Assembly (NCBI GenBank): GCA_036444275.1
Contig: JAZGAD010000014.1
Coordinates: 8,131 to 72,130, forward strand
Source: Candidatus Hydrothermarchaeales archaeon
Lineage (GTDB): Archaea > Hydrothermarchaeota > Hydrothermarchaeia > Hydrothermarchaeales > JAZGAD01
Reading direction: 5' to 3'
DNA length: 64,000 nucleotides
Every line of letters begins with the position of its first letter. Positions within the stretch are counted from its first letter, which is position 1. Below the pieces are notes generated by a model. The model did not search any database and had not been told where the DNA came from. It was given only the letters and a program-made list of their open reading frames with translations. Both the position numbers and the translations under genes were made by a program. Shown here piece by piece: positions 1 to 14,130 of the stretch.

Positions 1-2052
1 TTCGAACCTAAGAAGATCACAAACGCCATCCATAAGGCCATAGTGGCGCTAAACGAAGGTGACGAAGAACTATCGGAGCAGTTAACGAAAGAAGTGGTCG
101 GGATAATAGAAAAGGACTACACCGGTAGAATACCAAGTGTCGAGGACGTCCAGGATATCGTGGAGGAGGCCTTGATAGAGTCTGGCCACGTTAAGGTGGC
201 GAAGGCTTACATTATATACCGTCAAAAGCGAAGTGAGGAGAGGGACAAAAAGGCGCTCATGGGTATACGGGACGATCTCAAGCTCACATTGAATGCAGCC
301 AAAGTTCTGGAAAGAAGGTACCTGAAGAAAGATGATAAGGCTAACACTATAGAGACTCCTAGTGAGATGTTTCGTCGTGTCGCTAGGAATGTTGCGCAGG
401 CTGATTTACTCTATGATCCTGACGCGGACGTGGCTGTGACTGAAGAGGAGTTTTATCGTCTCATGTCCAGTCTTGACTTCCTGCCTAATTCTCCGACGCT
501 AATGAACGCTGGTACTGAAATACAACAGCTTTCAGCATGCTTCGTCCTTCCAGTGGATGACTCAATGGATGGAATATTCGGGGCTTTAAGGGCTATGGCC
601 CTAATCCACCAGAGTGGTGGCGGTACCGGTTTCTCATTCTCGAAACTACGTCCAAAGGGGGATATCGTCAAATCTACTATGGGCGTTGCATCGGGCCCCC
701 TTTCTTTTATGAGAATATTTGATGTTTCTACTGATGTGATAAAGCAGGGCGGCAGGAGGAGAGGTGCCAACATGGGCATCCTCCGCGTGGATCACCCTGA
801 CATCCTAGAATTCATAGTATCCAAGGAGACAGAAGGCTTTCTGGCGAATTTTAACATATCTGTTGGAATAACCGACGAATTCATAAAGGCTGTGCAGGAG
901 GATCGAGAACTTGCCTTAGTGAACCCGAGGAACAGTAAGCAGATAAAGAAGCTCAGAGCCAAGGACGTTTTTGACCTCATAGCCACCATGGCTTGGCGTA
1001 CAGGAGATCCGGGGATAATCTTTTTGGATCGTATTAACAGGGACAACCCTACTCCTGCTTTGGGTGAGATCGAAAGTACTAATCCCTGTGGGGAATTGCC
1101 TCTTCTGCCCTACGAGTCCTGCAACCTCGGCTCTATCAATCTATCCAAGATGGTGACGGATGGAAAGGTCGATTGGGAAAAGTTAGAGAAGACAGTGCAT
1201 TTGGCGGTCCATTTTCTTGATAATATCATAGACATGAACAAGTATCCCTTTCCGGAGATAAAGGAGATGACTAAAGGTAATAGGAAGATCGGCCTTGGCG
1301 TTATGGGCTACGCGGACATGCTGGTCCAGCTGGGTATCTCCTACGGTACCGAGGAGGCCGTTGCCTTAGCTGGCGAAGTGATGCAGTTCATTAACGAAGA
1401 AGCAAGGAAGGCATCTGCCGAGCTGGCTAGAGTTCGAGGCTCTTTCCCGAATTTCGAGAAAAGTGTCTGGAGGAAGAGGGGCTACGAGGCAATGCGAAAC
1501 GCAACCTTGACCACTGTTGCACCTACGGGTACTATCAGCATAATCGCCGGAATCAATAGTGGTATAGAACCCTTGTTTGCCGTCTCCTTCATGCGCAGTG
1601 TCATGGGCACTCAACTCTTAGAGGTCAACCCATTTTTCGAAGAGGATGCCAAGAAAGGTGGTTTCTATTCGAAGGAGCTCATGATAAAGATCGCTCGATT
1701 GGGCTCTATCCAGGCTATAGCGGAGATACCTGAAGGTGTTAGGCGTGCGTTTGTAACTTCTCATGATATTGCTCCTGAGTGGCATGTCAGGATGCAGGCG
1801 GCTTTCCAAGAGCATGTTGACAATGCAGTCTCCAAGACGGTTAACCTGCCCAACAACGCTTCTATTGAGGATGTTAGAATGATTTTCTTATTGGCGCATG
1901 AGCTAGGATGCAAGGGTATTACCGTATATAGATACGGGAGCAAGCCAGAGCAAGTCCTGAACATTGTCTCTACTCCAGAGAAGGGTGAAGAGCTAAGCGT
2001 GGATTCAGAGTTCGCGTCGGGGTGCCGCCCTGATGGGGTGTGCCCTTACTAG
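1..2052 (+). CDS. nrdJ: Class II (adenosylcobalamin-dependent) ribonucleotide reductase; 5' end cut by window edge
   Basis: Frame 1 is open from nt 1 (FEPKKITNAIHKAI...), so the N-terminal ATP-cone continues upstream of the GTG at 43 listed in the ORF track. Catalytic loop TNPCGELPLLPYESCNLGSINL (nt ~1078-1146). C-terminal redox Cys pair ...GCRPDGVCPY. No intein insertion. Confidence 0.9.
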   Translation, partial: FEPKKITNAIHKAIVALNEGDEELSEQLTKEVVGIIEKDYTGRIPSVEDVQDIVEEALIESGHVKVAKAYIIYRQKRSEERDKKALMGIRDDLKLTLNAAKVLERRYLKKDDKANTIETPSEMFRRVARNVAQADLLYDPDADVAVTEEEFYRLMSSLDFLPNSPTLMNAGTEIQQLSACFVLPVDDSMDGIFGALRAMALIHQSGGGTGFSFSKLRPKGDIVKSTMGVASGPLSFMRIFDVSTDVIKQGGRRRGANMGILRVDHPDILEFIVSKETEGFLANFNISVGITDEFIKAVQEDRELALVNPRNSKQIKKLRAKDVFDLIATMAWRTGDPGIIFLDRINRDNPTPALGEIESTNPCGELPLLPYESCNLGSINLSKMVTDGKVDWEKLEKTVHLAVHFLDNIIDMNKYPFPEIKEMTKGNRKIGLGVMGYADMLVQLGISYGTEEAVALAGEVMQFINEEARKASAELARVRGSFPNFEKSVWRKRGYEAMRNATLTTVAPTGTISIIAGINSGIEPLFAVSFMRSVMGTQLLEVNPFFEEDAKKGGFYSKELMIKIARLGSIQAIAEIPEGVRRAFVTSHDIAPEWHVRMQAAFQEHVDNAVSKTVNLPNNASIEDVRMIFLLAHELGCKGITVYRYGSKPEQVLNIVSTPEKGEELSVDSEFASGCRPDGVCPY

Positions 2053-2282
2053 GCGTTTCAATCATATCTTCTAGCTTCCAATACTAACGCGTGTGTTCGA
2101 GTTGTTAAGGTTCTCTAACCATCATCTAAATTTCGGATAGGGGATAGAAACTTTAGTTGATTATTCTAATTTTAGTGACTGTTTATATTAAAAAAATTCA
2201 TTCGAAAGTTTTTTAAAAGGGATAATGGAGTAGGATTTTAATAGTTACTTATAGCAGCGTTAGATAATCAAAGGAGGTGTTC

Positions 2283-4244
2283 ATGGCTTCCAAGTCTGGG
2301 GTCAAGATAGTTAAATCGTCAGGAGACTTAGCGGTATTTGATCCAAATGTGATAACTACTGAGTGTGTGGAAGCCGGGATAGAATTCTGGACCGCTGCCG
2401 ATGCGGCGCTGGCGGTATCCAAGGGCATCTACGACGGTATAAGCACCAAGGATATCCAAGAGCGCTTGGAGAAGGTTCTCTTAGAGACGAGCCCAGAGGC
2501 AGCTGAGCGCTATCGAAGGTTCCACAGCATGCTGGTGAGGACCTCCCGGAATACTATCGAGTCCTTTGATAGGAAACGAATTGCTTCTTCCCTCATGAAA
2601 GAGACAAAGCTCCCCAAGGAGCTCGCTGAGAACGTTGCAAAAGAGAGCGAAGAGGAGCTGAGGCGGGTGAAGCTGGATTTCATATCAGCACCCTTGATAA
2701 GAGAAGTGGTGAATGTCAAGTTATTGGAGCACGGCTTCGAGGACGCCAGGGCTGACTATACTCGGCTTGGAATACCGGTCTTTGATGCCTCTCAACTTGT
2801 TGAAGCAGGTGCAGCCGGAGAGGGCAAGAGCCCCCAAGTCATGCACAAATTAATGGCTGACAACGTGCTTCGGGAATACACCCTACTAAAGGTTCTACCG
2901 CTCCACCAAGCGGATGCCCACATGCGTGGAGAGATACATATCCATGCCCTTGAATGCTTTGTCACCAAGCCATATAGCTTCTGCCACAACCTTAGATATT
3001 TCTTCCAAACAGGCTTAGTTAGCGACTCTCTAGAGGAACGAGTGACTACCGGTCCCGCTAAGAGGCCTGAGGTGGCCATCCTCCATGTAGCGCAGCTGTT
3101 GCAGGATGCGCAGTCGCATTTCTCGGGTCCACAGCGCATCGAGCATTTTAATTACTTCCTTGCTCCGTATCTCGAGGGGTTGAAGCCAGAGGAGGTAATG
3201 CAGTTGGCTCAGAGCTTCGTTTATGAGATGAGCCAGAGGCGGGTGATGAGCGAAATATGCATAGATTACTTCTGCCCCGATAGTATAGGCGATCTTAAGG
3301 CAGTCAAAGCTGGGGGCACAGTAAAAGGTAAGTACCGGGATTATAAAGATGAAGCCAGAGCCTTTGCAGATGCCCTCACTCAAGTATACCTGAAAGGGGA
3401 TCATAAGGGTAGGGCGTTCCTATATCCAAAAGCGATATATTCGATTAAGAAAGAAGGTAAAGATGATAAGGCATTCATGAGTTTAGTTCACAAATTAGCC
3501 CTTAAATACGGCACGCCTACTTTTGCTGTTCTCGATGGTGAAGAGCCTAACCAAGGTACTCTACAGGCTGTAACCTTGAACATGCCCAGGATAGCATACG
3601 AATCTGGCGAGGAGGGTAAATTTTATGAGATACTGGATGACCGCTTGGCTATGGCCAGGGAAGTGATCATGGTGAAAAGGGACGTAATCAAGCGGAGGCT
3701 TGAGCAGGGGATGCTTCCTTTCCTCAGTCAAACGATAGGGGACGCTCCCTACTATTCCCTGGATGAGGTGCTTCATACCATTGCCTTCCTCGGGATAAAT
3801 GAGGCAGCCAAGGCACAAGTAGGTGCTGAACTCCACGAGAGTAACGATGCCTGGAGGTTTGGCTTGCAGGTGATGAGGCATATCTATAAAGTATTGCAAG
3901 AATGGACCGAAGAGACGCAGCTCAAATGGGCACTGACTGAGAGCAATGAGGACACAGCTAGACGCCTGGCCAAGCTTGATTATGGACAGTTCAGCGACAG
4001 ATCCCTAATAGGAGACCCAGAGAATCCATCTTATACCGGTGCGTGCTTCCTTAGCAGCGAGGCAGAGCTGAGCCCCTTAAGAAAGCTCCAGGTCGAGGGG
4101 GCCTTCCATCCTTATTGTAGGGTCATTGCTCAAGCAGAGGTAACGGCAAAGTCTGCAAGTACTCTCTTCGATTTCAGCAAGAAGATCCTTGAGGATACCG
4201 AAGTTAAGCGGTGGCGTTACTTAGCACGGGAAGTGAAAGCTTGA
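2283..4244 (+). CDS. Class III (NrdD-like) ribonucleotide reductase homologue with two N-terminal ATP-cone-like segments; no recognisable glycyl-radical C-terminus
   Basis: The ORF is open from GTG 2277, but ATG 2283 follows AGGAGGTG (2272-2279). ATP-cone-like segments VKIVKSSGDLAVFDP... and IESFDRKRIASSLMKE... NrdD-type motifs GEIHIHAL and AVTLNMPRIAYES. The last ~90 aa lack the CxxC zinc ribbon and the R-x-x-G-Y glycyl-radical motif. Confidence 0.7.
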   Translation: MASKSGVKIVKSSGDLAVFDPNVITTECVEAGIEFWTAADAALAVSKGIYDGISTKDIQERLEKVLLETSPEAAERYRRFHSMLVRTSRNTIESFDRKRIASSLMKETKLPKELAENVAKESEEELRRVKLDFISAPLIREVVNVKLLEHGFEDARADYTRLGIPVFDASQLVEAGAAGEGKSPQVMHKLMADNVLREYTLLKVLPLHQADAHMRGEIHIHALECFVTKPYSFCHNLRYFFQTGLVSDSLEERVTTGPAKRPEVAILHVAQLLQDAQSHFSGPQRIEHFNYFLAPYLEGLKPEEVMQLAQSFVYEMSQRRVMSEICIDYFCPDSIGDLKAVKAGGTVKGKYRDYKDEARAFADALTQVYLKGDHKGRAFLYPKAIYSIKKEGKDDKAFMSLVHKLALKYGTPTFAVLDGEEPNQGTLQAVTLNMPRIAYESGEEGKFYEILDDRLAMAREVIMVKRDVIKRRLEQGMLPFLSQTIGDAPYYSLDEVLHTIAFLGINEAAKAQVGAELHESNDAWRFGLQVMRHIYKVLQEWTEETQLKWALTESNEDTARRLAKLDYGQFSDRSLIGDPENPSYTGACFLSSEAELSPLRKLQVEGAFHPYCRVIAQAEVTAKSASTLFDFSKKILEDTEVKRWRYLAREVKA

Positions 4245-4258
4245 ACAAGAAGGAATTC

Positions 4259-4408
4259 ATGGAATACAAGCGTGAAAGGCTGAAAGAGATCGCTGTGGTG
4301 ATAAAGGAGAGTAGCGGACAGATGAACATGAATCCTCAGAAAATGGAGTTAGAAGATATGCAGGATAGGTTGGAGAAGTTGAAGAACTCCTACCCCTGGT
4401 TGAGATGA
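4259..4408 (+). CDS. Small helical hypothetical protein (49 aa), possible partner of the downstream PIN-like protein
   Basis: The ORF-track start 4211 overlaps the end of the NrdD-like gene. ATG 4259 is preceded by GAAGGAA. Its stop lies 7 nt before the next start (4416). No family recognised. Confidence 0.35.
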   Translation: MEYKRERLKEIAVVIKESSGQMNMNPQKMELEDMQDRLEKLKNSYPWLR

Positions 4409-4415
4409 GTGGGAA

Positions 4416-4742
4416 ATGCCAATAGACATAATCTTAGATGCCAACATACCCAAGAAGGTGAAGAACCTAAATGACAATAGGAGAGTGCTTCACATAGGGG
4501 ACGTAGATACTCACATGGTGGACGAAGACATCCTACACCTCGCTGGTAAGCTGGGCCACTGTCTCTTAGTGACCCACGATAGGGAGTTGGCCTTTCGGGC
4601 TTCGAAGAAGAGGAAAACTCTGTTTATACAAAAGAGCGTCAGCGCCGAGGATATAATCTATTGTATCGAGAAGAATAAGAAGTTGCTCAAGACCGCGAGC
4701 ATCTTCTGCGAGAATGGTGTAAAATGTAAGAATTGCAAATGA
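4416..4742 (+). CDS. DUF5615/Mut7-C-like PIN-fold protein (toxin-like)
   Basis: The pattern IDIILDANIPKKV...DEDILHLAGKLGHCLLVTHDRELAF matches the LDENLP...D.EIL..A....LVT.D.DF layout of DUF5615 PIN-like domains. The C-terminus CENGVKCKNCK is Cys-rich. Confidence 0.5.
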   Translation: MPIDIILDANIPKKVKNLNDNRRVLHIGDVDTHMVDEDILHLAGKLGHCLLVTHDRELAFRASKKRKTLFIQKSVSAEDIIYCIEKNKKLLKTASIFCENGVKCKNCK

Positions 4743-4876: not shown

Positions 4877-5377
4877 TTATTTTGAGAATATATCTCTCCT
4901 ATCTCGCATGGCGAGCATCCTCTCGTCGTCGCTCGCCTTAACCAGGAATTTGAAGAGGCACTTAGGAGCACCCTTGGAGATGACCTCTGGTAATAACAAT
5001 TCGCCCTCTGGAAAGGCCCCCGTAAAGAGGCTCTTCCAGGTGCCATAGTGGAAGCTGCAAGTAGCATACCTGTCTACCTTCATTATATCCTCAAAGGGGC
5101 ACGTGTTAACCTTCATTATCACGCTATCTGCGCTTGCCTCGAATTCTACATCAGTACCCAGCTCTGAATGGACACCCTGCTTAACAGCTTCTATCCATCC
5201 CTCTATGGTCCATTCCTCTGGCTTACGTACCTTATCTTTGAAGATCTTTTGCCCTGCCTTCTCAGCGCTAATCCTCGCGATCGTAGGATTCCTGGTCAGC
5301 TTCCAAGAGGTCTCAACTGATCTTATGAACCATCTACCATAGAGGTAGACCTTGAAGTCGTTGTTTGTTTTATCCAT
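4877..5377 (-). CDS. V4R (4-vinyl reductase-like) domain protein, last gene of the KaiC/Roadblock operon
   Basis: The C-terminal half NTCPFEDIMKV...ATCSFHYGTWKSLFTGAF...KGAPKCLFKF has the spaced Cys/Gly pattern of V4R domains. It lies 43 nt downstream of the Roadblock gene on the same strand. Confidence 0.55.
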   Translation of the reverse strand: MDKTNNDFKVYLYGRWFIRSVETSWKLTRNPTIARISAEKAGQKIFKDKVRKPEEWTIEGWIEAVKQGVHSELGTDVEFEASADSVIMKVNTCPFEDIMKVDRYATCSFHYGTWKSLFTGAFPEGELLLPEVISKGAPKCLFKFLVKASDDERMLAMRDRRDIFSK

Positions 5378-5420
5378 CTCTATCCTATCCTTTAGGGCTT
5401 AGCGACTATTCTTCATTCCC

Positions 5421-5798
5421 TCATAATAGTCCTTTTACCTTTTCACTGGCTTTCTCCATCTCCACCAATATCAATCCAAGTCCAGCCTCAGGTGTCGTCA
5501 TAACCACGAGCAGCGCCTTCGAGCCAGCACCCGTCGCTATCACCTTACCCTCTTTAGATTCAACTATCACCCTATCTGGCACGCCCTTCTTCAACTCTGA
5601 TATAGCGGTCTCTGCAGCACCGAGCATAGTAGCGCTCATAGCTGCAAAAGTCTCACCATGAATCCCACTCGGAATGTCCGATGCCATAAGCAAGCCATCC
5701 CTAGATACAACTGCACTAGCCTCAATATCCCCAACCCTCTTAATCTGCGCTAGAACCTTCTCCAAATCTTCTTTTAACATTTTTTCAGGCCCCAACAA
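5421..5798 (-). CDS. Roadblock/LC7 (MglB-like) domain protein
   Basis: VGDIEASAVVSRDGLLMASDIPSG...ETFAAMSATMLGAAETA...VIVESKEGKVIATGAGSKALLVVMT is a textbook Roadblock/LC7 pattern. It overlaps the upstream GTPase gene by 14 nt. Confidence 0.85.
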   Translation of the reverse strand: MLGPEKMLKEDLEKVLAQIKRVGDIEASAVVSRDGLLMASDIPSGIHGETFAAMSATMLGAAETAISELKKGVPDRVIVESKEGKVIATGAGSKALLVVMTTPEAGLGLILVEMEKASEKVKGLL

Positions 5799-6948
5799 CC
5801 ATATTGACTATAGTTTCAAAGGCTTCTACTACACCTTTCTTTTCAGTAGCAACAACTGGAAGTATCTTTATCTCTTCCCCTATCTGCATCTTCTCCCTTA
5901 TCTCCTTTTCGCTGAGGGCTCCTTCTAAGTCCTGTTTATTCGCAACTATTATATAAGGCAATCCATGCACTTTGATCAACTCCAGCATAGCCTTCGCCCT
6001 GGCGAAATCCTGGGGCTTCGTTGAGTCTATGACGACGAAGACCCCATACGCCTCTTTGCCCAGGAGCTTGAGAAGGGGATCGAAGCGCTCCTGCCCAGGT
6101 GTCCCGAAGAGGTCGACTGAGAAGCCCATGTGGTCTACGTGCCCATGATCTAGGGCTACCGTTGTGCCCAGTCTATCCACGGATACTGCCCTAGTTGAAA
6201 GTGAATGTATAAATGTCGACTTGCCTGCGTTGAAGGGCCCGGTAACAAGCAGCTTGGGTATGTATACTTTCACACCCCCTGGCTTGGTAACCCTGAAGAG
6301 GACGTATCTCTTTTCAGCTTCACACCAGTTCGCCCTTATTATGCCATAGTACTGTCCAAATAGAATTCTTCCGCCTACGCCTCCAATATCAACGACACAG
6401 TCGAAGAGTTCCTCCTTAATCTTCCTGAGGATCTCTTCAGGATAGGGCCAGGCTGTAAAGTTGTAGATGCCGATACTGTCGTTTAACATGATGTTCTTAT
6501 TCCACTCCTTCAAGTATTCATCGATATTCTCTCCGCAGAGGTCCACGATCTGGGAGAGTGACCCATGGACAACTCCGCCGTGTTCGAAGTCATCGATGGC
6601 CCTGCTGATAGTGTCGTTTAGGTTTTGAATATCGCCTGGGTCATCCACTACATATCGTTCATCGGATTGAATCCCCATTAACCCAGAGAAGGCGTCTAGT
6701 ATGGCAAACCTATCCCCATATCTCTCGATGTCCCAACCATAGTCCATGAACTCCTCCCTGACCATCGAGGGCTCTATAGTAGTGGTTATGAAGAGCCCCT
6801 TACCCCCCTGTTCTAAGTGGCTGATGAGGGTCTGCATCCCGAATACCTCGCCGGCGACACCAGGCTGTGTGTAGTAACATATGCTCTTTCCCTTTGGGAT
6901 CCCTCCATGTAAATAATCGTCCAATTTCGGTATCCCTGTCTTTATCAT
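5785..6948 (-). CDS. Fusion protein: inactivated KaiC/RecA-like N-domain (nt ~6268-6948) + small Ras-superfamily GTPase (COG2229/MglA-like, nt 5785-6267)
   Basis: The N-terminus IKTGIPKLDDYLHGGIPKGKSICYYTQPGVAGEVFG has the KaiC-like entry motif but no GK[ST] P-loop. The C-terminus has G1 GPFNAGKST (6217-6240), G3 DLFGTPGQERF and G4 NKQD. It overlaps the upstream gene by 4 nt (ATGA). Confidence 0.8.
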   Translation of the reverse strand: MIKTGIPKLDDYLHGGIPKGKSICYYTQPGVAGEVFGMQTLISHLEQGGKGLFITTTIEPSMVREEFMDYGWDIERYGDRFAILDAFSGLMGIQSDERYVVDDPGDIQNLNDTISRAIDDFEHGGVVHGSLSQIVDLCGENIDEYLKEWNKNIMLNDSIGIYNFTAWPYPEEILRKIKEELFDCVVDIGGVGGRILFGQYYGIIRANWCEAEKRYVLFRVTKPGGVKVYIPKLLVTGPFNAGKSTFIHSLSTRAVSVDRLGTTVALDHGHVDHMGFSVDLFGTPGQERFDPLLKLLGKEAYGVFVVIDSTKPQDFARAKAMLELIKVHGLPYIIVANKQDLEGALSEKEIREKMQIGEEIKILPVVATEKKGVVEAFETIVNMVVGA

Positions 6949-7655
6949 TCTCGCACCTCCATGATTCTACCCTCTTGGATTGCGTACTTGAAAATTGGAT
7001 TTGATGCAGAGAGGCCGGAGACCCTTATATACTTGCCTCCGCTTTCTTGCTTCATTTCTATTAATCCTTGGCAGAGCTGTCTAACAGTGGCTAAAACTTC
7101 TGGGCCATGCATCCCCTCCTCCAAGGTGTAGATACCGACGCATCCAGCTGCCCTTATCCTGCCGCTGAAGACATAGAGGAACCGGTATAGAATTTGGATG
7201 TTAGAGAACATGAGTAGGTTGGAGAGCGACTCAACAACCACAACCGTCTCTTTCAGGAGCAGTTCCTTGTAAAACCTTGTTAGAAATCGATTCAGGCCTA
7301 TAGAGATGCCATTGAGGTCGACAGCGCTCGAAACCTGTACGACGTTTGAAGCGTGCTTTCCAGTGCTAAAACCTAGGGTTCGTGATATGGAGTCTATGAT
7401 CCCGATTCTATCTTCATGAGGCCTCATATCCATCCCATGGCTTGCAAACCAATCCTTAAGCTGGTCGGCAGTATCCTTTGTGGTGATATATATGCCGCCG
7501 CCGCCGCCCTTTAGGACCTCGTAGAAGAGATTCCTGACTAAAACGCCTTTCCCTACCATAGGGGGGCCGGAGAGCAGAATGTTCGATCTAGGAGCTACAG
7601 CTCCAATTTGCCTATCTAGGAAATCTATTCCAAAAGAATAGGTCACATTATACAC
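6945..7655 (-). CDS. KaiC/RecA-like ATPase-fold protein with degenerate Walker A
   Basis: FGIDFLDRQIG....ILLSGPPMVGKGVL (P-loop at 7545-7568 reads GPPMVGKG; Lys is kept but Ser/Thr is replaced by Gly). The Walker B-like strand VVVVESLSNL has Glu in place of Asp. Confidence 0.7.
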   Translation of the reverse strand: MYNVTYSFGIDFLDRQIGAVAPRSNILLSGPPMVGKGVLVRNLFYEVLKGGGGGIYITTKDTADQLKDWFASHGMDMRPHEDRIGIIDSISRTLGFSTGKHASNVVQVSSAVDLNGISIGLNRFLTRFYKELLLKETVVVVESLSNLLMFSNIQILYRFLYVFSGRIRAAGCVGIYTLEEGMHGPEVLATVRQLCQGLIEMKQESGGKYIRVSGLSASNPIFKYAIQEGRIMEVRE

Positions 7656-7717
7656 CTTTGTATTTATTCTATCCCTTTCTCTTTCTCTTTAATCTATTAA
7701 ATATTTTCTTATCGAGG

Positions 7718-8452
7718 TTATATGAAGACTTTCTCCTCTGGGAAGACGGTGATGCCATTGTCCTCGATGATAAAAGGATGTGTCTCAAGGGAGTGCCTGC
7801 TTTGACGCATCTTCCGTACTGTTAGAGTCCTGACTACTCGTCCCTCAGCCAGTATCAAATCCATATGGATAACGCCACGCAGTAGGAATTCCTCAACGCC
7901 GTATCGGCTTATCTTATTCGGTGCTAAGGTCTCAGTGGTCATGAGGGAGGTGCATCCCAGCTCAAGAAGGAGGGAGGAAAGCCTGAATATTGTTTTCCTT
8001 GTCTCTATGGCATTTTCCAGGCCGAATTCCAACGCCGGGAGTGTATCTACTACAACGCGTTGAGCATCGATCCTCCCGACAGCAGCGGAGATAAGAGTCA
8101 TCAACTTCTCTATGTCGTATCCAGGGCCTATGGCAAAGCCCTTGTTCACCTTTATAGGAATCTTTATGGTAGAGGCATCTATGATCATCAACTTCCTCTC
8201 GTCCTCAAGCTTTTGAAAGTCCCAGCCGAACTCTGCCATTTCAGCCTTTAGGTCCTGGGGCCTCTCCTCTAGGGAGACGAGTACTCCGTTCTCGTCGTAT
8301 TGGGTTGCTCCGTTGTACAGGAACTGGGAGGAAAGAATGCTCTTCCCAGTGCCAGATTCTCCTGCTATCAATATGCTTGAGCCCTTTGGAATACCTCCAT
8401 TAAGGATTTCATCCAGTCCGGGTATTCCGGTCTTAGTCTTAGTTTTAGCCAT
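7718..8452 (-). CDS. KaiC-like (COG0467) single-domain ATPase, intact Walker A
   Basis: TGIPGLDEILNGGIPKGSSILIAGESGTGKS (P-loop 8339-8362) and Walker B LMIIDAS. I prefer ATG 8452 (preceded by GGGAG) over the ORF-track start 8539, because a TATA-like block (8481-8500) lies inside the longer version. Confidence 0.85.
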   Translation of the reverse strand: MAKTKTKTGIPGLDEILNGGIPKGSSILIAGESGTGKSILSSQFLYNGATQYDENGVLVSLEERPQDLKAEMAEFGWDFQKLEDERKLMIIDASTIKIPIKVNKGFAIGPGYDIEKLMTLISAAVGRIDAQRVVVDTLPALEFGLENAIETRKTIFRLSSLLLELGCTSLMTTETLAPNKISRYGVEEFLLRGVIHMDLILAEGRVVRTLTVRKMRQSRHSLETHPFIIEDNGITVFPEEKVFI

Positions 8453-8480
8453 CTCCCAGCCTTCTCTATTGAATTGACCC

Positions 8481-8500
8481 TTATTATATATTATATGTAT
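8481..8500 (-). promoter_or_regulatory. TATA-like AT block, candidate promoter of the KaiC/Roadblock operon
   Basis: The minus strand reads acatacatataatatataataagg, 29-48 nt upstream of ATG 8452. Confidence 0.4.
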
Positions 8501-8601
8501 GTGTTTATTTTCTGTTTCATTTCCCCTTCCCCTTCCCATTTCATTTCTAATGCGGACTATTTTGACTGTGACTGGTATCTTCTCTGAAAACTTCCTCAGC
8601 T

Positions 8602-11600
8602 CTATGGTAGCTTGGCGTCTATTTGGGATAGTCTCTCCTCGTTCTTCTTCGTGAGTTCCTCATATGGCTTGTCAGAGATTATACCCTTATCATGTTGCAT
8701 TTTAATAGTCTCCAGCAGCTTCTTTATCTGCTCTCGCTTCCTCCTCAACTCATCCTCCCGTGAGAGCCTGACTCTCTTCTCTGGCATTGCCCTTGCCCCA
8801 CGCTTCCTCTCCCTCGATAGGACTTCTTTAGTTCCTATTAATGTTTCCAGTCTATGGGACCATCGCAGTGCGAAGTAGCCTACCATCAGCGCTAGTATGA
8901 ATAAGGCGGCGATGATGCCGAAGAAGACCTCTCTTGGTATCAAAGGAGGCACTATGATAGTAGGTGTAGGGGGAAGAGTTGGCGGTAGTGTAGTTGGCGG
9001 TAGTGTAGTTGGCGGTAGTGTAGTTGGTGGAGTTATCACCGTCACTTCTACCATGGCTTTATCTATAAGGGAGCGGGCATCCCTCAGGTAAGTTCTGGCG
9101 CTCTCAAGAGCGGCGAGTGCATCATAGTATCTCTTATCTCTTATAAGATCCTCGGCTCTTCTTATCTCGCTTGTAGCATCTCTCAAGATGGTTAAAGCCT
9201 TGGTTACATTCTTACCTTCCTGAAGTGCTATGAAAGTCTTGTCTTCTACTTCAACTAAGTTTTCCTTGACTTTATCTATCTCCCATTCCAGAAGATCCTC
9301 TATAGATTCGAATACTTTCAGGGTCAGGGATTTCTCGTCTGACGCTTCAATGGACGTGGAGATAAAGGTGATGTTGAATTCCTGGGGGGTTATATTCTTA
9401 GGCACGTCGATCTCGATGACCTGAAGCAGGGTTTTCCCTTTAGCTAGAGTGTCTGCACTGCCCTTTACAAGCTGGAACCACGTAGCTGGTATCCCAATGA
9501 GTTCTGCCGAGACGTTATGTAGGAGTACGCCACCTGTGTTCTCAACTGTTACGGTTAGGTAGCCTGTTCCACCTTTTTCTACGCTTATCTGAGACGGATA
9601 GAAGTCCGTTATGTTCAGTTGAGCTGGTGGTGCTGCCGGTGCTCCCGGTGCTCCCCCTGGGCCTCCTGGAGGGGCAGCAGCTTTTGCCTTTACCTCGAAG
9701 GTTGCACTTGCTGTGGCTGGAGGAGCGTTTGGGTCATAGATGACGCTGACATGCAACGTATAAATTCCGGGGGCAAGATCGATAGCTTTGTCGGTAGTCT
9801 TATTAAAGACATCAGGCACGCCGGTCTCCTTAACTGCCCTAGAGAATGAACTGTTGTATTTTTCTTCTCCAATGATTGTGTAACTAATTATAACATCTTC
9901 CTCGACGAACTCTCCCATGTTGGTCATATTTATGGTGAAGGTGAGATATTCTTCTTGGGCCACTGGATCCTTAATCCATTCAATGATCACATCGTAGGGC
10001 CCGGTTTTGAGTATCCTGAAGGCCTCCATGTCCCAAGACCCAGCCGACCCCTCCTTTGCCTCCAATACCGTTAGATACGAGCCGGTGAGTACTGAGCTCG
10101 AATCGACCTTCTCGGAATAGGTGTAGAAGCCAACTTGGGTGATATTGAAATCTGATTTCGAGAGGTCCCGCCACAGGTCAGGTGAATATCCTTCAGTGCG
10201 ATAGATCTTTACATTTATCGCGTCCGAGTCTATACCGTCTCCTGTGGCTGGATTTATCGTTATTACCGAGACGGTCATTATCTTGTCGAGGTACACGACC
10301 GATGGTATCATCACCTCTGCGAAGAGATCCACAGACACCACGAAGATATCGATGTCGTTGGCTTCATCAAGACCATAAGTCGCTTTTGCTGTCACCAAAT
10401 ATGCCCCAGTGGAGGCATTTGTATCCAGGGTGAAGTTGGCTTTGTATATGAGTCCTACGTCTAGGGTGGCATTGATGTTCTCTTGGATAATGCTACCATT
10501 GGGGGCTGTGACGTTTATGCTCACGTTTGCACCGGGCAATAAGATGCCGTATCCATCCTTGACCACGGCATATATTGTCACAGTTTCTCCGGGTTGATGC
10601 ACATCGCCCGCATCTACATCTAGATACAGAGGTAATCCGGTAATTTCCTTGACAACTTTGAAGGAGTTGGATGCTGAGGCATTCACCCATTTGTCCGCTT
10701 TATCATCGTAGTAGGTGACATTGGCAACCCAGTTATAATCTCCCAGAGTTGCCTTTGAATCCAGCTGGAAGGTTGGATCTGGTCTAGCTTTTCCATCAGC
10801 GCTTGTCGTTGCAGAGAAGTTCAGTATCAGCCAGTTATATGGGTCAATGAGCTGCAGGTTCACATCAGCGTCTCCAACAGGTTGGTCATTCGCATCACCG
10901 ATATAAATTTTGAAGCTCCCAGTGTCGCCCTGCTCATAGGTATCAGCGAGGGTATAGATAGTGAGCTCGAGCTTTGCATAAACCGCGAATTTGCTCTCGT
11001 TTGTTCCCCAGCCGGTGGCGTTGTCGTTGGCATAGACTGTAACAGTATAGTTGCCTCTGAGCGAGGTGTTCGTTACATTGACGGCCCAGCTTGAGGAGCC
11101 TCCTAGTATGTTGGCGGTTATATTACTGAGTTCAAGTAGTTCGGATGTGTTGTCAGGCCGCGTTATGGTTGCCGTGACGTTTGTGATAAGATTCGAAGCC
11201 CTATCAGTGACGTTGACGATTATCATGGCACTGCGTTTCTGCTCGACGTATTGCGAGAGATACACTATTTGCACCGACGGCCCCAGGACTACCGTTATAT
11301 TGGCTGGTATCCACTGGTAGTCTGGGATTGCATCTGCGTCGGTGGCATTAACTGTGTAGTTTGCGGTGTACGTATTATCCACCGCGGCATTCGAGGTGTT
11401 GTAGTTAATCTGGAACCTGTATGCAGAAGTCTTGTTTACTGTAAAGTTGGTCTTATTCGCTAGAGTGAAGTTGCCAGATGCAGGGTTAATGCTTATGTTG
11501 AAGGATATGTTAACGTTCCCGGTGTTGTTTATCTCTACCTCGCATATATTGCCAGTGGCGTTCACCAGCACCGTTTTGGAGCATGATTCGAGAATCTTCA

Positions 11601-14130
11601 TATTCCAGTTCCTGGAGGTGGGCACCGTTATGTTCAAAGTAAGGTTATCCCATCCGCCGTTGACGGAGCTCACGTTTATTGTGCCGTTGTATTCCCCAGG
11701 TGGATAGCCCTCCGGCACACTTACATTGACAGAGATATTCGTCCAATTGCCGGCGTTTACGTAGGCAGTGAAGTTCGGGTAAAAGCTGACGGTGAAGTTG
11801 TCGCATACCTCACCGGAGCCGGAGATGCAGCTTGCAGTGACATTTTCGATTCGATAGTTACCAGTGGAGTTTGCAGTGAAGTTTCCTATCAACCCCTCGC
11901 TTCCCTCTACAACGGTTCCATCCAGCTGGGTCTCGAGTACCTCCAGAATTGGTTGTCTGACTATCTCTATTACTGAAGGCAAATCTGTAGTAGAATTCGG
12001 AGGTGCATCATAGTTCGCCCAGTTCACGGTTGCATTTATCGTGTAGTTCCCAGCCGGCGTTCCAGCTAGCACGGTTATATTGAAGTAGCTCACCCTGAAT
12101 TGGTCCTTTTCTAGGTTATTAAGTAGGAAGGGGAAGGTGACATTGGCTTTGAAGGTTGATGGGAGCGATAGGGTTATATTAGGCGAGTAGGCGGTGCCAT
12201 TTCTGATGTTGGACACATTCGTCATCATCAGGAAGCTCTGGTTGTCGCGTTGCGTCACGTTGTAGACTCTAACGGTGTCATTTGTGAGATTTATCTTGAG
12301 GGTGGTGTTAGTAGCTATTATGGTCCTGAAGTAGTCCTCTCCGTAGCCGGTGTTGTTGTATTTCGAGGCATTGCAGGCAAGGATCCAGGGGTTATATACT
12401 ATGGAGGGAGCTGTGAAGTTCACCGCATAGGTGCCATCATCGTTATCGGTTATGTTTTCAACTACCTTCGGGTCGGTCCCATTAGTATAGTTGCATGTTA
12501 CGTTGGCGTTCGCTATCCATGTGGTGTTTATGTAGTTCTGAACTGATACGTTAGCCTTCACTAGGCCGTCTATGAGGACCACCTTGGAGGAAGGTTGTAT
12601 TATCGAGACAGAAACGCTGTATCTGTCGGTGAGATTGAAGGTGGTGGAACTCAGGTTCAAGAGGTAGCCGTATTTGTCATATACCCTTATGGTGAGATTC
12701 CAGACACCGGTTTGGTTGGCGAGGCCGAAGGTGTAGTTAGCGGTATAGTTGCCGTTCCCTTGGTAGTAAAGGGGTAAGACTATGTCATCGCTAGGATCTG
12801 CAGGGGTGCCCATGTCCAAGGTGGCGTTTGCAGAGGCATTAAGAGTGTGGCTATCATTCGTGACTATGCCAGTTATGTTAACAGTTTCATTTAGGTTGTA
12901 GACGGGGTATTCGGTCTGGGCTTCTACGATGACCTGCCATGCATCTGGTGGACCGCGGGTTGTGATGACATCCTCGTAGAGCCTGTCTTTTAGCTCCTCG
13001 ACTGAGGCGTGAGCCAATGTATCGGTTGATTTGTTGTTGAAAGAGACGACGGCGGTCGCAGAAACTGAGTCTACACTAAACCCGTTAAACCATATGTATA
13101 TCCCTTTTAGTCCGAGTCCTACCTCATACTTATTCCCCGGCGTTCCACTTTCATTTAGATCTATCACTCCTAGACCCAGATTCGAAGTAGGATTGTATGC
13201 GGAGGCATAATATTCAGACGGAACACTTCGAAATTCAACCGTCCCAAAACCTCTAACTGTATCTAACGCAGGGGCGGAGTCAGAGGACGCTCTAGTCTCA
13301 CTACTACCGATCTTCGTGAGGTTGTGTTCGATCTTGATCCAAGGATTATTTTCATAAAAGGTATACCTCTTCTTCATTGCGTATTCGCCAGTTGATGTTG
13401 TTGTACCCCATATTTTCTCGTCTCCAATTTGCTCAACGATTTTCCTGATTGAACCATTAACGACTAGCGTATAATTGTTCCCGAAGTCATACCAATAATA
13501 AGTGACAGCACCATCACTATACTTGATGTACTCCAGAGTATCTTGGTCGGATGGAATGTCAAATATCAGATTTCCGTCCCTAAAGCTCGCATAGTATATA
13601 CCCGAGGTATAATTCACGCTGCGATTAGTATCCACCCTAATCTCCAAGAGGGAATTATTCACCCAGAATTCGTCGCTACTATTTGTATAGGTCAGCTGTG
13701 TGTTGTAGGTGGGAGCTTCTTTAGCTCCGTTTTCTATGGTGTCGAAATAGATGTAGTAGGAATACCTCGTGTTCTCGGGCCTCGTCCCGTTTAGAAGCCA
13801 GACAACCTCGCCTACCGCATTAGATGTGGGTGAATAACCACTTCCCTGGTCGAATTGCGAGGGAATCTCGTACATGAGTTCCCCGGTGGATAAGTTGTAT
13901 TCGAGGACCCTCGTCGAGTTCTCATCAAAGGTCCCGGTTACATTGAGTGCGGTAAAGTTTATCCAGTGCTCAATAGGCCAATCCGTCCTATTGTACGAAG
14001 AAGTATTCACTGTTACGTTAACGCGGTAATGCCAAGAGTTATTCCACCATTTAACAGGTATAGCACTAGCTACCCCTACGTTTAGTACCCAGACTAATAT
14101 ACCTACTACTAATAGGGCTTTTCTATTCAC
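8602..14130 (-). CDS. Large (1,842 aa) type-I membrane-anchored surface glycoprotein-like protein (S-layer/CARDB-like)
   Basis: GTG start. Signal peptide MNRKALLVVGILVWVLNVGVASA. Very dense N-x-S/T sequons. CARDB/COG1361-like segment LNITDFYPSQISVEKGGTGYLTVTVENTGGV. Helical stalk, then the (PPTTL)n linker, TM helix VFFGIIAALFILALMVGYFAL and a ~75-aa basic coiled-coil cytoplasmic tail. Confidence 0.85.
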   Translation of the reverse strand: MNRKALLVVGILVWVLNVGVASAIPVKWWNNSWHYRVNVTVNTSSYNRTDWPIEHWINFTALNVTGTFDENSTRVLEYNLSTGELMYEIPSQFDQGSGYSPTSNAVGEVVWLLNGTRPENTRYSYYIYFDTIENGAKEAPTYNTQLTYTNSSDEFWVNNSLLEIRVDTNRSVNYTSGIYYASFRDGNLIFDIPSDQDTLEYIKYSDGAVTYYWYDFGNNYTLVVNGSIRKIVEQIGDEKIWGTTTSTGEYAMKKRYTFYENNPWIKIEHNLTKIGSSETRASSDSAPALDTVRGFGTVEFRSVPSEYYASAYNPTSNLGLGVIDLNESGTPGNKYEVGLGLKGIYIWFNGFSVDSVSATAVVSFNNKSTDTLAHASVEELKDRLYEDVITTRGPPDAWQVIVEAQTEYPVYNLNETVNITGIVTNDSHTLNASANATLDMGTPADPSDDIVLPLYYQGNGNYTANYTFGLANQTGVWNLTIRVYDKYGYLLNLSSTTFNLTDRYSVSVSIIQPSSKVVLIDGLVKANVSVQNYINTTWIANANVTCNYTNGTDPKVVENITDNDDGTYAVNFTAPSIVYNPWILACNASKYNNTGYGEDYFRTIIATNTTLKINLTNDTVRVYNVTQRDNQSFLMMTNVSNIRNGTAYSPNITLSLPSTFKANVTFPFLLNNLEKDQFRVSYFNITVLAGTPAGNYTINATVNWANYDAPPNSTTDLPSVIEIVRQPILEVLETQLDGTVVEGSEGLIGNFTANSTGNYRIENVTASCISGSGEVCDNFTVSFYPNFTAYVNAGNWTNISVNVSVPEGYPPGEYNGTINVSSVNGGWDNLTLNITVPTSRNWNMKILESCSKTVLVNATGNICEVEINNTGNVNISFNISINPASGNFTLANKTNFTVNKTSAYRFQINYNTSNAAVDNTYTANYTVNATDADAIPDYQWIPANITVVLGPSVQIVYLSQYVEQKRSAMIIVNVTDRASNLITNVTATITRPDNTSELLELSNITANILGGSSSWAVNVTNTSLRGNYTVTVYANDNATGWGTNESKFAVYAKLELTIYTLADTYEQGDTGSFKIYIGDANDQPVGDADVNLQLIDPYNWLILNFSATTSADGKARPDPTFQLDSKATLGDYNWVANVTYYDDKADKWVNASASNSFKVVKEITGLPLYLDVDAGDVHQPGETVTIYAVVKDGYGILLPGANVSINVTAPNGSIIQENINATLDVGLIYKANFTLDTNASTGAYLVTAKATYGLDEANDIDIFVVSVDLFAEVMIPSVVYLDKIMTVSVITINPATGDGIDSDAINVKIYRTEGYSPDLWRDLSKSDFNITQVGFYTYSEKVDSSSVLTGSYLTVLEAKEGSAGSWDMEAFRILKTGPYDVIIEWIKDPVAQEEYLTFTINMTNMGEFVEEDVIISYTIIGEEKYNSSFSRAVKETGVPDVFNKTTDKAIDLAPGIYTLHVSVIYDPNAPPATASATFEVKAKAAAPPGGPGGAPGAPAAPPAQLNITDFYPSQISVEKGGTGYLTVTVENTGGVLLHNVSAELIGIPATWFQLVKGSADTLAKGKTLLQVIEIDVPKNITPQEFNITFISTSIEASDEKSLTLKVFESIEDLLEWEIDKVKENLVEVEDKTFIALQEGKNVTKALTILRDATSEIRRAEDLIRDKRYYDALAALESARTYLRDARSLIDKAMVEVTVITPPTTLPPTTLPPTTLPPTLPPTPTIIVPPLIPREVFFGIIAALFILALMVGYFALRWSHRLETLIGTKEVLSRERKRGARAMPEKRVRLSREDELRRKREQIKKLLETIKMQHDKGIISDKPYEELTKKNEERLSQIDAKLP
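8981..9025 (-). repeat. 3 x 15-bp perfect tandem repeat encoding the PPTTL linker
   Basis: ggcggtagtgtagtt occurs three times in a row (8981-8995, 8996-9010, 9011-9025). It translates on the minus strand as TTLPPTTLPPTTLPP, just outside the TM helix. Confidence 0.9.

What the first reader, a model, noticed from the sequence alone, without database searches (positions are those of the whole stretch)
2283..4244. NrdD-like reductase homologue without a glycyl-radical domain, next to a class II RNR
The 655-aa protein has two ATP-cone-like segments and core NrdD motifs (GEIHIHAL, AVTLNMPRIAYES). Its C-terminus (...SYTGACFLSSEAELSPLRKLQVEGAFHPYCRVIAQAEV...REVKA) shows neither the Cys4 zinc ribbon nor the R-x-x-G-Y glycyl-radical motif that class III RNR chemistry requires. 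No nrdG-type activase is in the window. The small ORF downstream does not supply the missing part. It may be a catalytically dead, nucleotide-sensing paralogue (for example a regulator of the adjacent NrdJ). It could also use different radical chemistry.
Basis: partly seen in the sequence, partly recalled or inferred. Interest (0 to 1): 0.55.

Follow-up and report, generated by a model that had tools for sequence, protein, structure and literature searches.

The report
Dead anaerobic ribonucleotide reductase kept as sensor
This archaeal gene descends from the anaerobic enzyme that makes DNA building blocks, has lost every part needed for that chemistry, and is still kept by selection, above all in its two ATP/dATP-binding modules, so it most likely senses nucleotides rather than making them.

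Summary
ORF 2283-4244 (653 aa from the ATG) is a class III RNR (NrdD) fold with two N-terminal ATP-cones. It lacks the Zn ribbon and glycyl-radical tail. It also lacks the whole finger loop with the thiyl Cys (in-frame deletion), the bottom-face Cys (Ser234), the NxN substrate flap and the YTNSxH motif.

It is not a frameshifted nrdD. At least 59 homologues share these losses and form one clade nested inside live two-cone NrdDs of Hydrothermarchaeota. Within-genus dN/dS is 0.06-0.21, lowest in the cones.

The 81%-complete genome shows no activase, no other NrdD and no detached glycyl-radical piece. It has two tandem nrdJ genes just upstream.

A very conserved PIN-like (DUF5615/Mut7-C) gene lies downstream in most relatives. 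It also follows live nrdD-trx-nrdG operons, so this partnership predates the loss of catalysis.

Best reading: a pseudoenzyme kept as an ATP/dATP-binding regulatory or scaffold protein of the dNTP-supply cluster. The effector (PIN-like nuclease or NrdJ) is inferred, not shown. "Other radical chemistry" is not supported.

The scan has noted this family before on other DNA (e1-4793373, e1-3315359). I found no paper describing it.

The parts
1..2052 (+). [quoted passage not shown] Its 5' end lies just upstream of the window. A first nrdJ copy and a divergent Lrp/AsnC regulator lie further upstream on the contig.
   Evidence: NF006417 992 bits, TIGR02504 731 bits. Two tandem PF02867 hits on contig C14. 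Lrp/AsnC homologue at C14:4998-5435 on the minus strand.
2053..2282 (+). Intergenic region of 230 nt. It is A/T-rich with TATA-like stretches and has a GGAGGTG ribosome-binding site 5 nt before the ATG. The dead nrdD probably has its own promoter here.
   Evidence: Sequence read. Promoter function is inferred, not tested.
2283..4244 (+). Dead NrdD (653 aa plus stop): a class III RNR alpha-subunit fold without any catalytic element.
   Evidence: AlphaFold model with pLDDT 92.3. Foldseek best hits are NrdD structures 8p2c, 9d3x, 4col and 1h78, with E values from 8.5e-28 to 5e-19.
2298..2528 (+). ATP-cone 1 (aa 8-84, numbered from the GTG at 2277). It contains C30, the only Cys invariant across the dead clade.
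   Evidence: Pfam ATP-cone, 2 stretches. The model shows a beta-hairpin plus four helices. Identity within the dead clade is 63%, against 28% in live relatives.
2529..2771 (+). ATP-cone 2 (aa 85-165), the most conserved part of the protein.
   Evidence: Pfam best stretch 85-161. Identity within the dead clade is 78%. About 30 columns that are near-invariant in live relatives are also kept in the dead clade.
2814..2837 (+). Position of the lost NxN substrate flap (aa 180-187, 'AGEG---KSPQ', where live relatives have 'KENANLQHNPE').
   Evidence: The role of the flap in P. copri NrdD is taken from PMC11226230.
2976..2978 (+). Ser234 codon at the position of the bottom-face catalytic Cys (live 'RPYC', here 'KPYS').
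3525..3533 (+). Junction of the in-frame deletion, about 29 aa in alignment A1, that removes the finger loop with the thiyl-radical Cys-Cys motif ('AQCCRL' in live relatives).
   Evidence: About half of the dead clade shares the deletion (30 of 59 sequences have a gap at the Cys-Cys columns; pattern 'S---------' in 31 of 135).
4259..4408 (+). Small 49-aa helical ORF between the dead nrdD and the PIN-like gene. It has no Cys and no glycyl motif. It is conserved only in some relatives.
   Evidence: tblastn identity is 54.5% in L042 and 43% in L055, with a weak hit in L057. No Pfam or PADLOC hit.
4416..4742 (+). PIN-like protein (108 aa) with conserved acidic residues (D4, D8, D29, D31, D36, D55) and four invariant Cys (C83, C98, C104, C107). 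It is the last gene of the cluster.
   Evidence: Alignment A2 has 74% mean column identity. Of 11 orthologues, 10 hit DUF5615, 9 hit Mut7-C and 7 hit PIN_10. Linkage to the NrdD gene is shown.

Best explanation
The gene encodes a pseudoenzyme. It descends from a thiol-dependent class III ribonucleotide reductase with two ATP-cones and can no longer reduce nucleotides. Selection keeps it as a folded NrdD scaffold whose two ATP-cones bind adenine nucleotides.

Shown here:
- all catalytic elements are lost;
- the fold is intact;
- purifying selection acts on the whole protein and is strongest on the cones;
- the gene has a fixed place in the RNR gene cluster: Lrp/AsnC regulator, nrdJ, nrdJ, dead nrdD, small ORF, PIN-like gene.

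Inferred: the cones still read the ATP/dATP ratio, as they do in live NrdD, where nucleotide binding repositions or dimerises the cones. The inferred output is a partner rather than an active site. The most likely partner is the co-transcribed, extremely conserved PIN-like (Mut7-C/DUF5615) nuclease. The alternative partner is NrdJ, through cone-cone contacts. Either route would tune dNTP supply.
For: Catalytic loss. Pfam NRDD stops at profile position 468 of 562. TIGR02487 scores below its cut-off. Alignments with live relatives show no Gly motif, no Zn ribbon, a deleted finger loop, Ser in place of the bottom Cys, no NxN flap, a degenerate TPAES motif and no YTNSxH. Of 259 columns that are near-invariant in live relatives, 116 are lost in the dead clade.

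Intact fold. The model has pLDDT 92.3, and its best structural matches are all NrdD.

Not an accident of this genome. In a sample of 135 family members, about 80 lack the glycyl motif. A 28-row sample of them forms one clade with SH-aLRT 95; the earliest branch, P0034, still has the bottom Cys, the Zn ribbon and an 'NGY' remnant.

Selection. dN/dS is 0.06-0.21 in six within-genus pairs. It is 0.02-0.12 in the cones and 0.06-0.23 in the barrel. Cone identity is higher in the dead clade than in live relatives, while barrel identity is lower.

Genome context. nrdJ is directly upstream in 7 of 15 dead-clade loci. The PIN-like gene is downstream in 11 of the 14 where the downstream side is visible. 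An Lrp/AsnC regulator is nearby in 14 loci. In metagenomes, 16 of 18 informative PIN-like loci have a two-cone nrdD, or its nrdG, just upstream.

No activase, second NrdD or detached Gly-radical piece was found in the genome.
Against: Nucleotide binding by these cones is not shown. Each cone has only one basic residue where well-studied cones have the K-R pair (read). A Pfam ATP-cone hit does not prove a working cone (PMC4390871). The N-terminal 166 aa found no solved ATP-cone by sequence.

The PIN-like gene also follows live nrdD-trx-nrdG operons (L059, L075, L081, L082), and two contigs carry Lrp next to the PIN-like gene with no nrdD at all (L091, L092). So its role may not depend on the dead NrdD.

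Three dead-clade loci lack the PIN-like gene (L046, L047, L052), and eight do not have nrdJ directly upstream.

No interaction was tested. The genome is only 81% complete, so absence of an activase or a second NrdD is not proven.
Confidence: 0.6

Rival explanations
1. The dead NrdD is a direct allosteric partner of the class II enzyme. Through cone-cone contacts it forms dATP-dependent hetero-oligomers with NrdJ, which has its own ATP-cone, and so inhibits or buffers NrdJ. The PIN-like gene would be an unrelated operon passenger.
For: nrdJ lies immediately upstream in 7 of 15 dead-clade loci, and twice in tandem here and in L042. NrdJ carries an ATP-cone. NrdJ is present in 32 of 38 genomes of the phylum. 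dATP-driven cone-cone association is an established inhibition mode in RNRs (PMC11226230; PMC12662201).
Against: In genus g5 and several other lineages the dead gene is not next to nrdJ. The barrel is still under purifying selection (omega 0.06-0.23), which a cone-only decoy would not need. No interaction test was possible.
Confidence: 0.2
2. The pair is a toxin-antitoxin-like or anti-phage module. The PIN-like protein is a toxic nuclease held in check by the dead NrdD, which releases it when nucleotide pools are disturbed by infection.
For: DUF5615 and Mut7-C proteins are PIN-like nucleases. The two genes are tightly coupled or overlapping in several loci. The cones could report pool changes.
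Against: The PIN-like gene gives one match per genome in 25 of 38 genomes of the phylum and sits at the same place in the RNR cluster next to an Lrp regulator. It also follows live nrdD-trx-nrdG operons. The PIN-like family is very uniform, with 79 clusters all at least 57% identical, unlike mobile defence genes. No PADLOC hit for either protein.
Confidence: 0.07
3. The gene is a relic of a lost anaerobic RNR operon on its way to deletion, with no function of its own.
For: Decay is stepwise in the family: first the Gly motif, then the Zn ribbon, then the finger loop. Forms of 514-604 aa have a much-reduced barrel.
Against: Open frames are kept across nearly all families of the phylum. dN/dS is 0.06-0.21. 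Cone 1 is more conserved in the dead clade than in live relatives. The fold is predicted with high confidence.
Confidence: 0.05
4. It is still a reductase or another radical enzyme. The radical would come from elsewhere, for example a separate glycyl-radical polypeptide or AdoCbl.
For: In the same phylum another NrdD paralogue does carry its glycyl-radical domain on a separate small ORF, so trans supply is not absurd.
Against: There is no thiyl Cys, because the finger loop is deleted. There is no conserved Cys in the barrel. The NxN flap and other substrate contacts are lost. No detached Gly-radical ORF and no activase are found in this genome.
Confidence: 0.03

Closest known systems
Thiol-dependent class III RNR catalytic subunit NrdD with a Cys-Cys finger-loop motif and an adjacent thioredoxin-like redoxin (archaeal two-ATP-cone forms such as P0014, 761 aa, 55% identical in alignment A3; solved distant relatives: T. 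maritima 4col, P. copri 8p2c, S. thermophilus 9d3x, T4 1h78)
   Same: Same fold, including both ATP-cones. It shares the conserved cone 2, the 'LADAHMRGEIHIH', 'LAPY', 'LNxPR', 'GxNE' and 'RLAKLD' motifs, and the same locus type, flanked by an Lrp/AsnC regulator and a PIN-like gene.
   Different: No glycyl-radical domain, Zn ribbon, finger loop or thiyl Cys, bottom Cys or NxN flap. TPAES is degenerate and YTNSxH is lost. There is no redoxin or activase gene beside it. It scores below the TIGR02487 cut-off.
NrdR, the bacterial RNR-specific repressor (Zn ribbon plus one ATP-cone)
   Same: The proposed logic is the same: an ATP-cone reads ATP/dATP and controls dNTP supply. The gene sits in an RNR gene cluster.
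   Different: No Zn ribbon or other DNA-binding domain was detected by Pfam or NCBIfam. There are two cones plus a 470-aa dead barrel. Any output would go through protein partners, not DNA. It is an analogy only, not a member.
Catalytically dead RNR large-subunit homologues of other classes: betaherpesvirus R1 homologues M45/UL45 (from my own knowledge) and NCBIfam NF005401 'ribonucleotide reductase-like protein' (listed)
   Same: An RNR catalytic subunit kept as a folded protein after losing its chemistry.
   Different: Those derive from class I or class II enzymes and have unrelated contexts. This one derives from class III, keeps two ATP-cones and lies inside the host's own RNR cluster.
DUF5615 / Mut7-C / PIN_10 PIN-like nucleases (for the partner at 4416-4742)
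   Same: Orthologues match these Pfam families. Acidic residues are conserved and there is a C-terminal four-Cys cluster.
   Different: The window's own copy gives no Pfam hit up to E 5. The usual DUF433 partner of DUF5615 proteins is absent. The gene is fixed in an RNR operon rather than in a mobile pair.

Membership tests
Class III RNR catalytic subunit NrdD (PF13597 / TIGR02487) | NrdD alpha/beta-barrel fold | tested here: met
   PF13597 at E 2.6e-78. The model has pLDDT 92.3. Foldseek gives 8p2c at E 8.5e-28 and 4col at E 1.4e-21.
Class III RNR catalytic subunit NrdD (PF13597 / TIGR02487) | Score over the curated equivalog cut-off | tested here: not met
   TIGR02487 scores 260.3 bits against a cut-off of 326.35. 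All other NrdD equivalogs are far below their cut-offs.
Class III RNR catalytic subunit NrdD (PF13597 / TIGR02487) | C-terminal glycyl-radical motif RxxG[YF] | tested here: not met
   The protein ends at 'WRYLAREVKA', where live relatives continue to 'SRITGYYQ'. No remnant in any frame of the genome.
Class III RNR catalytic subunit NrdD (PF13597 / TIGR02487) | Cys4 zinc ribbon before the glycyl loop | tested here: not met
   CxxC..CxxC is absent.
Class III RNR catalytic subunit NrdD (PF13597 / TIGR02487) | Thiyl-radical Cys on the finger loop | tested here: not met
   An in-frame deletion of about 29 aa covers 'AQCCRL'. No conserved barrel Cys in the clade.
Class III RNR catalytic subunit NrdD (PF13597 / TIGR02487) | Bottom-face Cys ('RPYC') | tested here: not met
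   Ser234 in 'KPYSFCH'. In the dead clade this column holds S in 37, T in 15 and A in 3 of 59 sequences. Cys236, two residues on, is not conserved.
Class III RNR catalytic subunit NrdD (PF13597 / TIGR02487) | NxN substrate flap between the cone linker and the first core helix | tested here: not met
   'ENANLQ' is invariant in live relatives and kept in 2-31% of dead-clade sequences, depending on the column. P0001 has 'AGEG---KSPQ'. The flap is defined in PMC11226230.
Class III RNR catalytic subunit NrdD (PF13597 / TIGR02487) | Substrate-contact Glu of the TPAE(S/G) motif (P. copri Glu581) | tested here: inconclusive
   P0001 has 'LTES-NED', so Glu residues are nearby but the motif is broken. 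The Glu column is kept in 36% of the dead clade.
Class III RNR catalytic subunit NrdD (PF13597 / TIGR02487) | Cognate radical-SAM activase NrdG in the genome | tested here: not met
   The best TIGR02495 hit is 66 bits against a cut-off of 131. The best TIGR02491 hit is 17 bits against 126. tblastn with relatives' NrdG finds only generic radical-SAM hits. The genome is 81% complete.
ATP-cone regulatory domain (PF03477) | Domain present, with the beta-hairpin plus four-helix topology | tested here: met
   Two stretches, 57.9 bits, cut-off 25.8. Secondary structure of the model is consistent for aa 8-84 and 85-161.
ATP-cone regulatory domain (PF03477) | Binds ATP or dATP | not testable with these tools
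   Each cone has one basic residue (K12, R88) at the K-R position and Arg residues in the last helix. Binding is inferred from conservation only.
NrdR-type RNR repressor | Zn-ribbon DNA-binding domain plus an ATP-cone, about 150 aa | tested here: not met
   No NrdR model, Zn-ribbon or HTH hit in Pfam or NCBIfam. The protein is 653 aa.
PIN-like DUF5615 / Mut7-C (partner at 4416-4742) | Match to the family profile | tested here: inconclusive
   Of 11 orthologues, 10 hit PF18480 (best E 1.1e-8) and 9 hit PF01927. The window's own copy has no hit up to E 5. The structure model is poor (pLDDT 65.9) and finds no PDB match.

The most novel reading that the evidence does not exclude
The dead NrdD is the ATP/dATP-sensing subunit of a two-protein switch with the PIN-like nuclease. 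The switch would cleave RNR-cluster or other transcripts according to the dNTP/ATP balance. That would be an archaeal, post-transcriptional counterpart of the bacterial NrdR repressor, built from a retired enzyme.
Probability: 0.25. Interest if true: 0.8.

Novelty: new variant of a known kind. Interest (0 to 1): 0.6.

Why it matters
Most archaea lack NrdR, so how they control dNTP supply is poorly understood. This is a whole RNR catalytic subunit that has been stripped of its chemistry but is still kept by selection, mainly on its ATP-cones. It lies inside the RNR gene cluster next to an Lrp-type regulator and a PIN-like nuclease. That makes it a concrete, testable candidate for such control.

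It also matters for annotation. Public records call these proteins "anaerobic ribonucleoside-triphosphate reductase". That label would wrongly credit this genome with a class III RNR and an anaerobic dNTP route. On the evidence here, the genome relies on its two B12-dependent NrdJ copies.

The family also offers a natural series of intermediates for studying how an enzyme becomes a pseudoenzyme.

Tried and rejected
Synteny was obtained instead through the genome search, the fetch from genomes and the search for related loci.
- Frameshift or truncation of a normal nrdD was rejected. No Zn-ribbon or Gly-motif remnant exists downstream or anywhere in the genome. The finger-loop deletion is in frame and shared with many homologues.
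- The downstream 49-aa ORF as a detached glycyl-radical piece was rejected: it has no Cys and no Gly motif.
- Defence system: no PADLOC hit.
- The structure of the PIN-like partner was poor (pLDDT 65.9), and Foldseek gave nothing significant.
- Mapping the cones onto solved ATP-cones by sequence gave no hit.
- Mapping the effector (specificity) site failed. The relevant stretch of P. copri NrdD is not aligned by the profile, and the fold tools give no residue-level alignment. Whether the specificity site survives is untested.
- Three literature searches for dead, inactive or NrdD-like paralogues found no description.
- The first MAFFT run timed out and was repeated with a faster setting.
Full report
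**What is there.** An ORF runs from 2277 (GTG) or 2283 (ATG) to 4244 on the + strand. A GGAGGTG site sits 5 nt before the ATG at 2283, and the identical database entry has 653 aa. Residue numbers below count from the GTG, as in P0001.

Pfam finds NRDD at E 2.6e-78, aa 183-615, but only against profile positions 6-468 of 562. It also finds two ATP-cone stretches. The NrdD equivalog TIGR02487 scores 260 bits, under its 326-bit cut-off. Upstream, 1-2052 is a B12-dependent NrdJ. It is the second of two tandem nrdJ genes on the contig.

**What is missing.** I aligned the protein with its nearest live relatives, such as P0014 (761 aa, 55% identical in alignment A3), P0054, P0086 (labelled Archaeoglobus profundus) and P0098. 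The live proteins carry:
- 'KENANLQ', the NxN substrate flap described for P. copri NrdD (PMC11226230);
- 'RPYC', the bottom-face Cys;
- 'AQCCRL', the finger loop with the thiyl Cys;
- 'TPAES', whose Glu corresponds to P. copri Glu581;
- 'YYTNSxH';
- CxxC..CxxC followed by 'SRITGYYQ'.

The window's protein has, in the same order:
- 'AGEG---KSPQ';
- 'KPYS' (Ser234);
- an in-frame deletion of about 29 aa in place of the finger loop;
- 'LTES-NED';
- 'SYTGACF';
- an end at 'WRYLAREVKA', before the Zn ribbon.

Of 259 columns that are at least 93% conserved in 46 live relatives, 116 fall below 50% in 59 dead-clade members and 86 stay at 85% or more. The only Cys conserved across the dead clade is C30, in cone 1. 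This excludes any RNR-type thiyl chemistry.

**Not an artefact.** tblastn with live C-terminal tails, with the finger loop and with a detached glycyl-radical ORF from a relative finds nothing in the whole 1.49-Mb genome (best E 0.15). The 49-aa ORF at 4259-4408 has no Cys and no Gly motif. The genome is 81% complete. It has no other PF13597 hit, no NrdG over its cut-off and no NrdG orthologue by tblastn.

**The fold is kept.** With a 114-sequence alignment, AlphaFold gives pLDDT 92.3 and pTM 0.86. Both cones show the beta-hairpin plus four-helix topology. The best Foldseek matches are all NrdD: P. copri 8p2c (E 8.5e-28), S. thermophilus 9d3x, T. maritima 4col and T4 1h78.

**A family, not a one-off.** The protein search returned 266 relatives. 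In a 135-sequence sample, 51 have the full set of catalytic residues and about 80 lack the glycyl motif. Of the 135, 31 have exactly the window's pattern. All named sources are Hydrothermarchaeota or unclassified archaea.

FastTree places 72 non-catalytic sequences in one clade with support 99. An IQ-TREE search (LG+C20 PMSF, with the finger-loop and tail columns removed) recovers a 28-row sample of them as one clade with SH-aLRT 95, nested among live NrdDs. P0034 is the earliest branch. It still has the bottom Cys and the Zn ribbon, an 'NKIGY' remnant of the glycyl motif, and Tyr-Tyr in place of Cys-Cys. Zn ribbons survive in a few inner branches (P0039, P0040, P0042, P0076). So decay was stepwise.

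At least two further, younger losses lie inside live clades: P0021 and P0025/P0035. Caveat: relaxed constraint on the same columns could pull dead sequences together, so a single origin is likely but not proven.

Still more reduced forms of 514-604 aa keep the two cones and 'ADxHMxGxIHIH' but little of the barrel.

**Selection.** Six within-genus pairs give dN/dS of 0.06-0.21. Two deeper pairs were saturated at synonymous sites. Split by region, the cones give 0.02-0.12 and the rest 0.06-0.23, with the cones lower in all five pairs tested.

Mean pairwise identity by region:

| Region | Dead clade | Live relatives |
|---|---|---|
| Cone 1 | 63% | 28% |
| Cone 2 | 78% | 63% |
| Barrel segments and C-terminal tail | 27-52% | 61-78% |

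Constraint has moved from the active site to the cones, but the barrel is not free to drift.

**Neighbourhood.** I took 20 loci from genomes of the phylum and compared gene orders. Live two-cone nrdD genes are followed by a thioredoxin-like gene and a radical-SAM activase. In L059 a PIN-like gene follows those.

Of the 15 dead-clade loci:
- 7 have nrdJ directly upstream (with a corrinoid adenosyltransferase gene in between in L043 and L044);
- 11 of the 14 whose downstream side is visible have the PIN-like gene downstream;
- the five genus-g5 loci keep an NrdG-like gene between the dead nrdD and the PIN-like gene.

An Lrp/AsnC regulator is divergently placed in 13 of the 20 loci, and in the window's own contig upstream of the first nrdJ.

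The PIN-like protein (4416-4742) is 62-78% identical across the phylum, which makes it more conserved than the NrdD-like protein. It has invariant Asp residues and four invariant Cys. Ten of 11 orthologues hit DUF5615 and 9 hit Mut7-C, although the window's own copy gives no hit. It gives one match per genome in 25 of 38 genomes, nearly always on the same contig as the NrdD-like gene. Only 79 clusters of it exist in the large protein database, all at least 57% identical.

In an independent metagenome scan, 16 of 18 informative PIN-like loci had a two-cone nrdD (live or dead), or its nrdG, just upstream. Two had Lrp next to the PIN-like gene with no nrdD. The partnership is therefore real, but it predates the loss of catalysis.

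Neither protein hits a PADLOC model. The convergent genes downstream (Roadblock/LC7, a KaiC-GTPase fusion, KaiC-like proteins and an 1842-aa surface protein) look unrelated.

**RNR repertoire of the phylum.** NrdJ is present in 32 of 38 genomes. No genome holds a live and a dead two-cone NrdD together. Where a live class III enzyme coexists with the dead one, it is a one-cone paralogue at about 35% identity.

**How it most likely works.**

Shown:
- the protein cannot reduce nucleotides;
- it folds as NrdD;
- it is under purifying selection centred on two ATP-cones;
- it is fixed in the dNTP-supply gene cluster.

Established for live class III enzymes: ATP or dATP binding to the cone repositions or dimerises the cones and gates substrate binding (PMC11226230; PMC12662201).

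Inferred: here the same nucleotide-driven movement is kept and acts on a partner instead of an active site. I rank the co-transcribed PIN-like nuclease first and NrdJ second.

Weak points: nucleotide binding is untested, and each cone has only one basic residue at the K-R position. The PIN-like gene is also found with live enzymes. I could not map the specificity site.

**Known or new.** I found no paper describing catalytically dead NrdD homologues. Public records label these proteins as active anaerobic reductases. Dead RNR subunits of other classes are known: herpesvirus M45/UL45 (from my own knowledge) and the NCBIfam 'ribonucleotide reductase-like protein'. So this is a new variant of a known kind.

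The scan itself has met it before. Two notes on other genomes describe the same family (e1-4793373 with the PIN-like partner, and e1-3315359). Many more describe dead NrdDs with ATP-cones in other lineages, some fused to a DNA-binding domain. I re-tested the claims about catalytic loss, selection and the PIN-like partner here and they hold. I add three points: the PIN-like gene belongs to the ancestral live operon, the NxN flap is lost, and the dead form is never accompanied by a live two-cone copy.

Noticed in passing
L047:2456-4650 (also L070, L071, L072, L073, L074); not in the window's genome: The one-cone NrdD paralogue of Hydrothermarchaeota keeps RPYC and the 'SECCRL' finger loop, but it ends right after the first CxxC of the Zn ribbon ('SCLDCG..RGL*', 649-669 aa). 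A separate ORF downstream, about 55-70 aa from its first Met, carries the second CxxC and the glycyl motif 'TRVTGFFSK'. This is seen in 6 genomes of at least 5 families. It looks like a naturally split class III RNR with the glycyl-radical domain as its own polypeptide, or like conserved recoding.
   Followed up: partly
window 4259-4408: A 49-aa helical ORF lies between the dead nrdD and the PIN-like gene. It has its own ribosome-binding site. It is conserved in the sister genome (54.5% identity, L042) and in L055, and is absent from most other loci. It matches no family.
   Followed up: partly
contig C14 upstream of the window (C14:4998-5435 minus strand; nrdJ copy 1 with its PF02867 match at C14:6239-7654): An Lrp/AsnC-family regulator is divergently transcribed from the RNR cluster in 14 loci across the phylum. 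It is a candidate transcription factor for RNR genes in this NrdR-less lineage. The window's family also has nrdJ duplicated in tandem.
   Followed up: partly
L091:4400-5294 and L092:480-1376: Two metagenome contigs carry the Lrp/AsnC regulator directly next to the PIN-like gene with no nrdD between them. So the PIN-like gene can outlive the NrdD gene altogether.
   Followed up: no
L048-L051, L053 (genus g5): The dead nrdD is followed by a radical-SAM NrdG-like gene before the PIN-like gene. The activase is kept although its neighbour is dead; it may serve the split one-cone NrdD encoded elsewhere in those genomes.
   Followed up: no
L037-L041 (G001-G003, G006, G035): Further-reduced members of 514-604 aa keep both ATP-cones at about 60-64% identity to the window's protein (45% in L041), while most of the barrel is eroded or shortened.
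   Followed up: partly
window 4877-8539, minus strand: A convergent operon holds a weak MetOD1-like protein, a Roadblock/LC7 protein, a fusion of a KaiC N-terminal fragment with a Ras/Arf-like small GTPase (387 aa), and two KaiC-like ATPases. Its first three genes (those nearest the PIN-like gene) are conserved in the sister genome (L042).
   Followed up: no
window 8602-14130, minus strand: An 1842-aa ORF with an MG2 (alpha-2-macroglobulin-type) domain and a NEW3 domain. It is probably a large surface protein.
   Followed up: no
P0079, P0082, P0084, P0085, P0088: Live two-cone NrdDs of about 1140 aa carry intein and LAGLIDADG endonuclease domains. Several NrdJ frames in the phylum are about 960-1380 aa, which also suggests inteins.
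   Followed up: no
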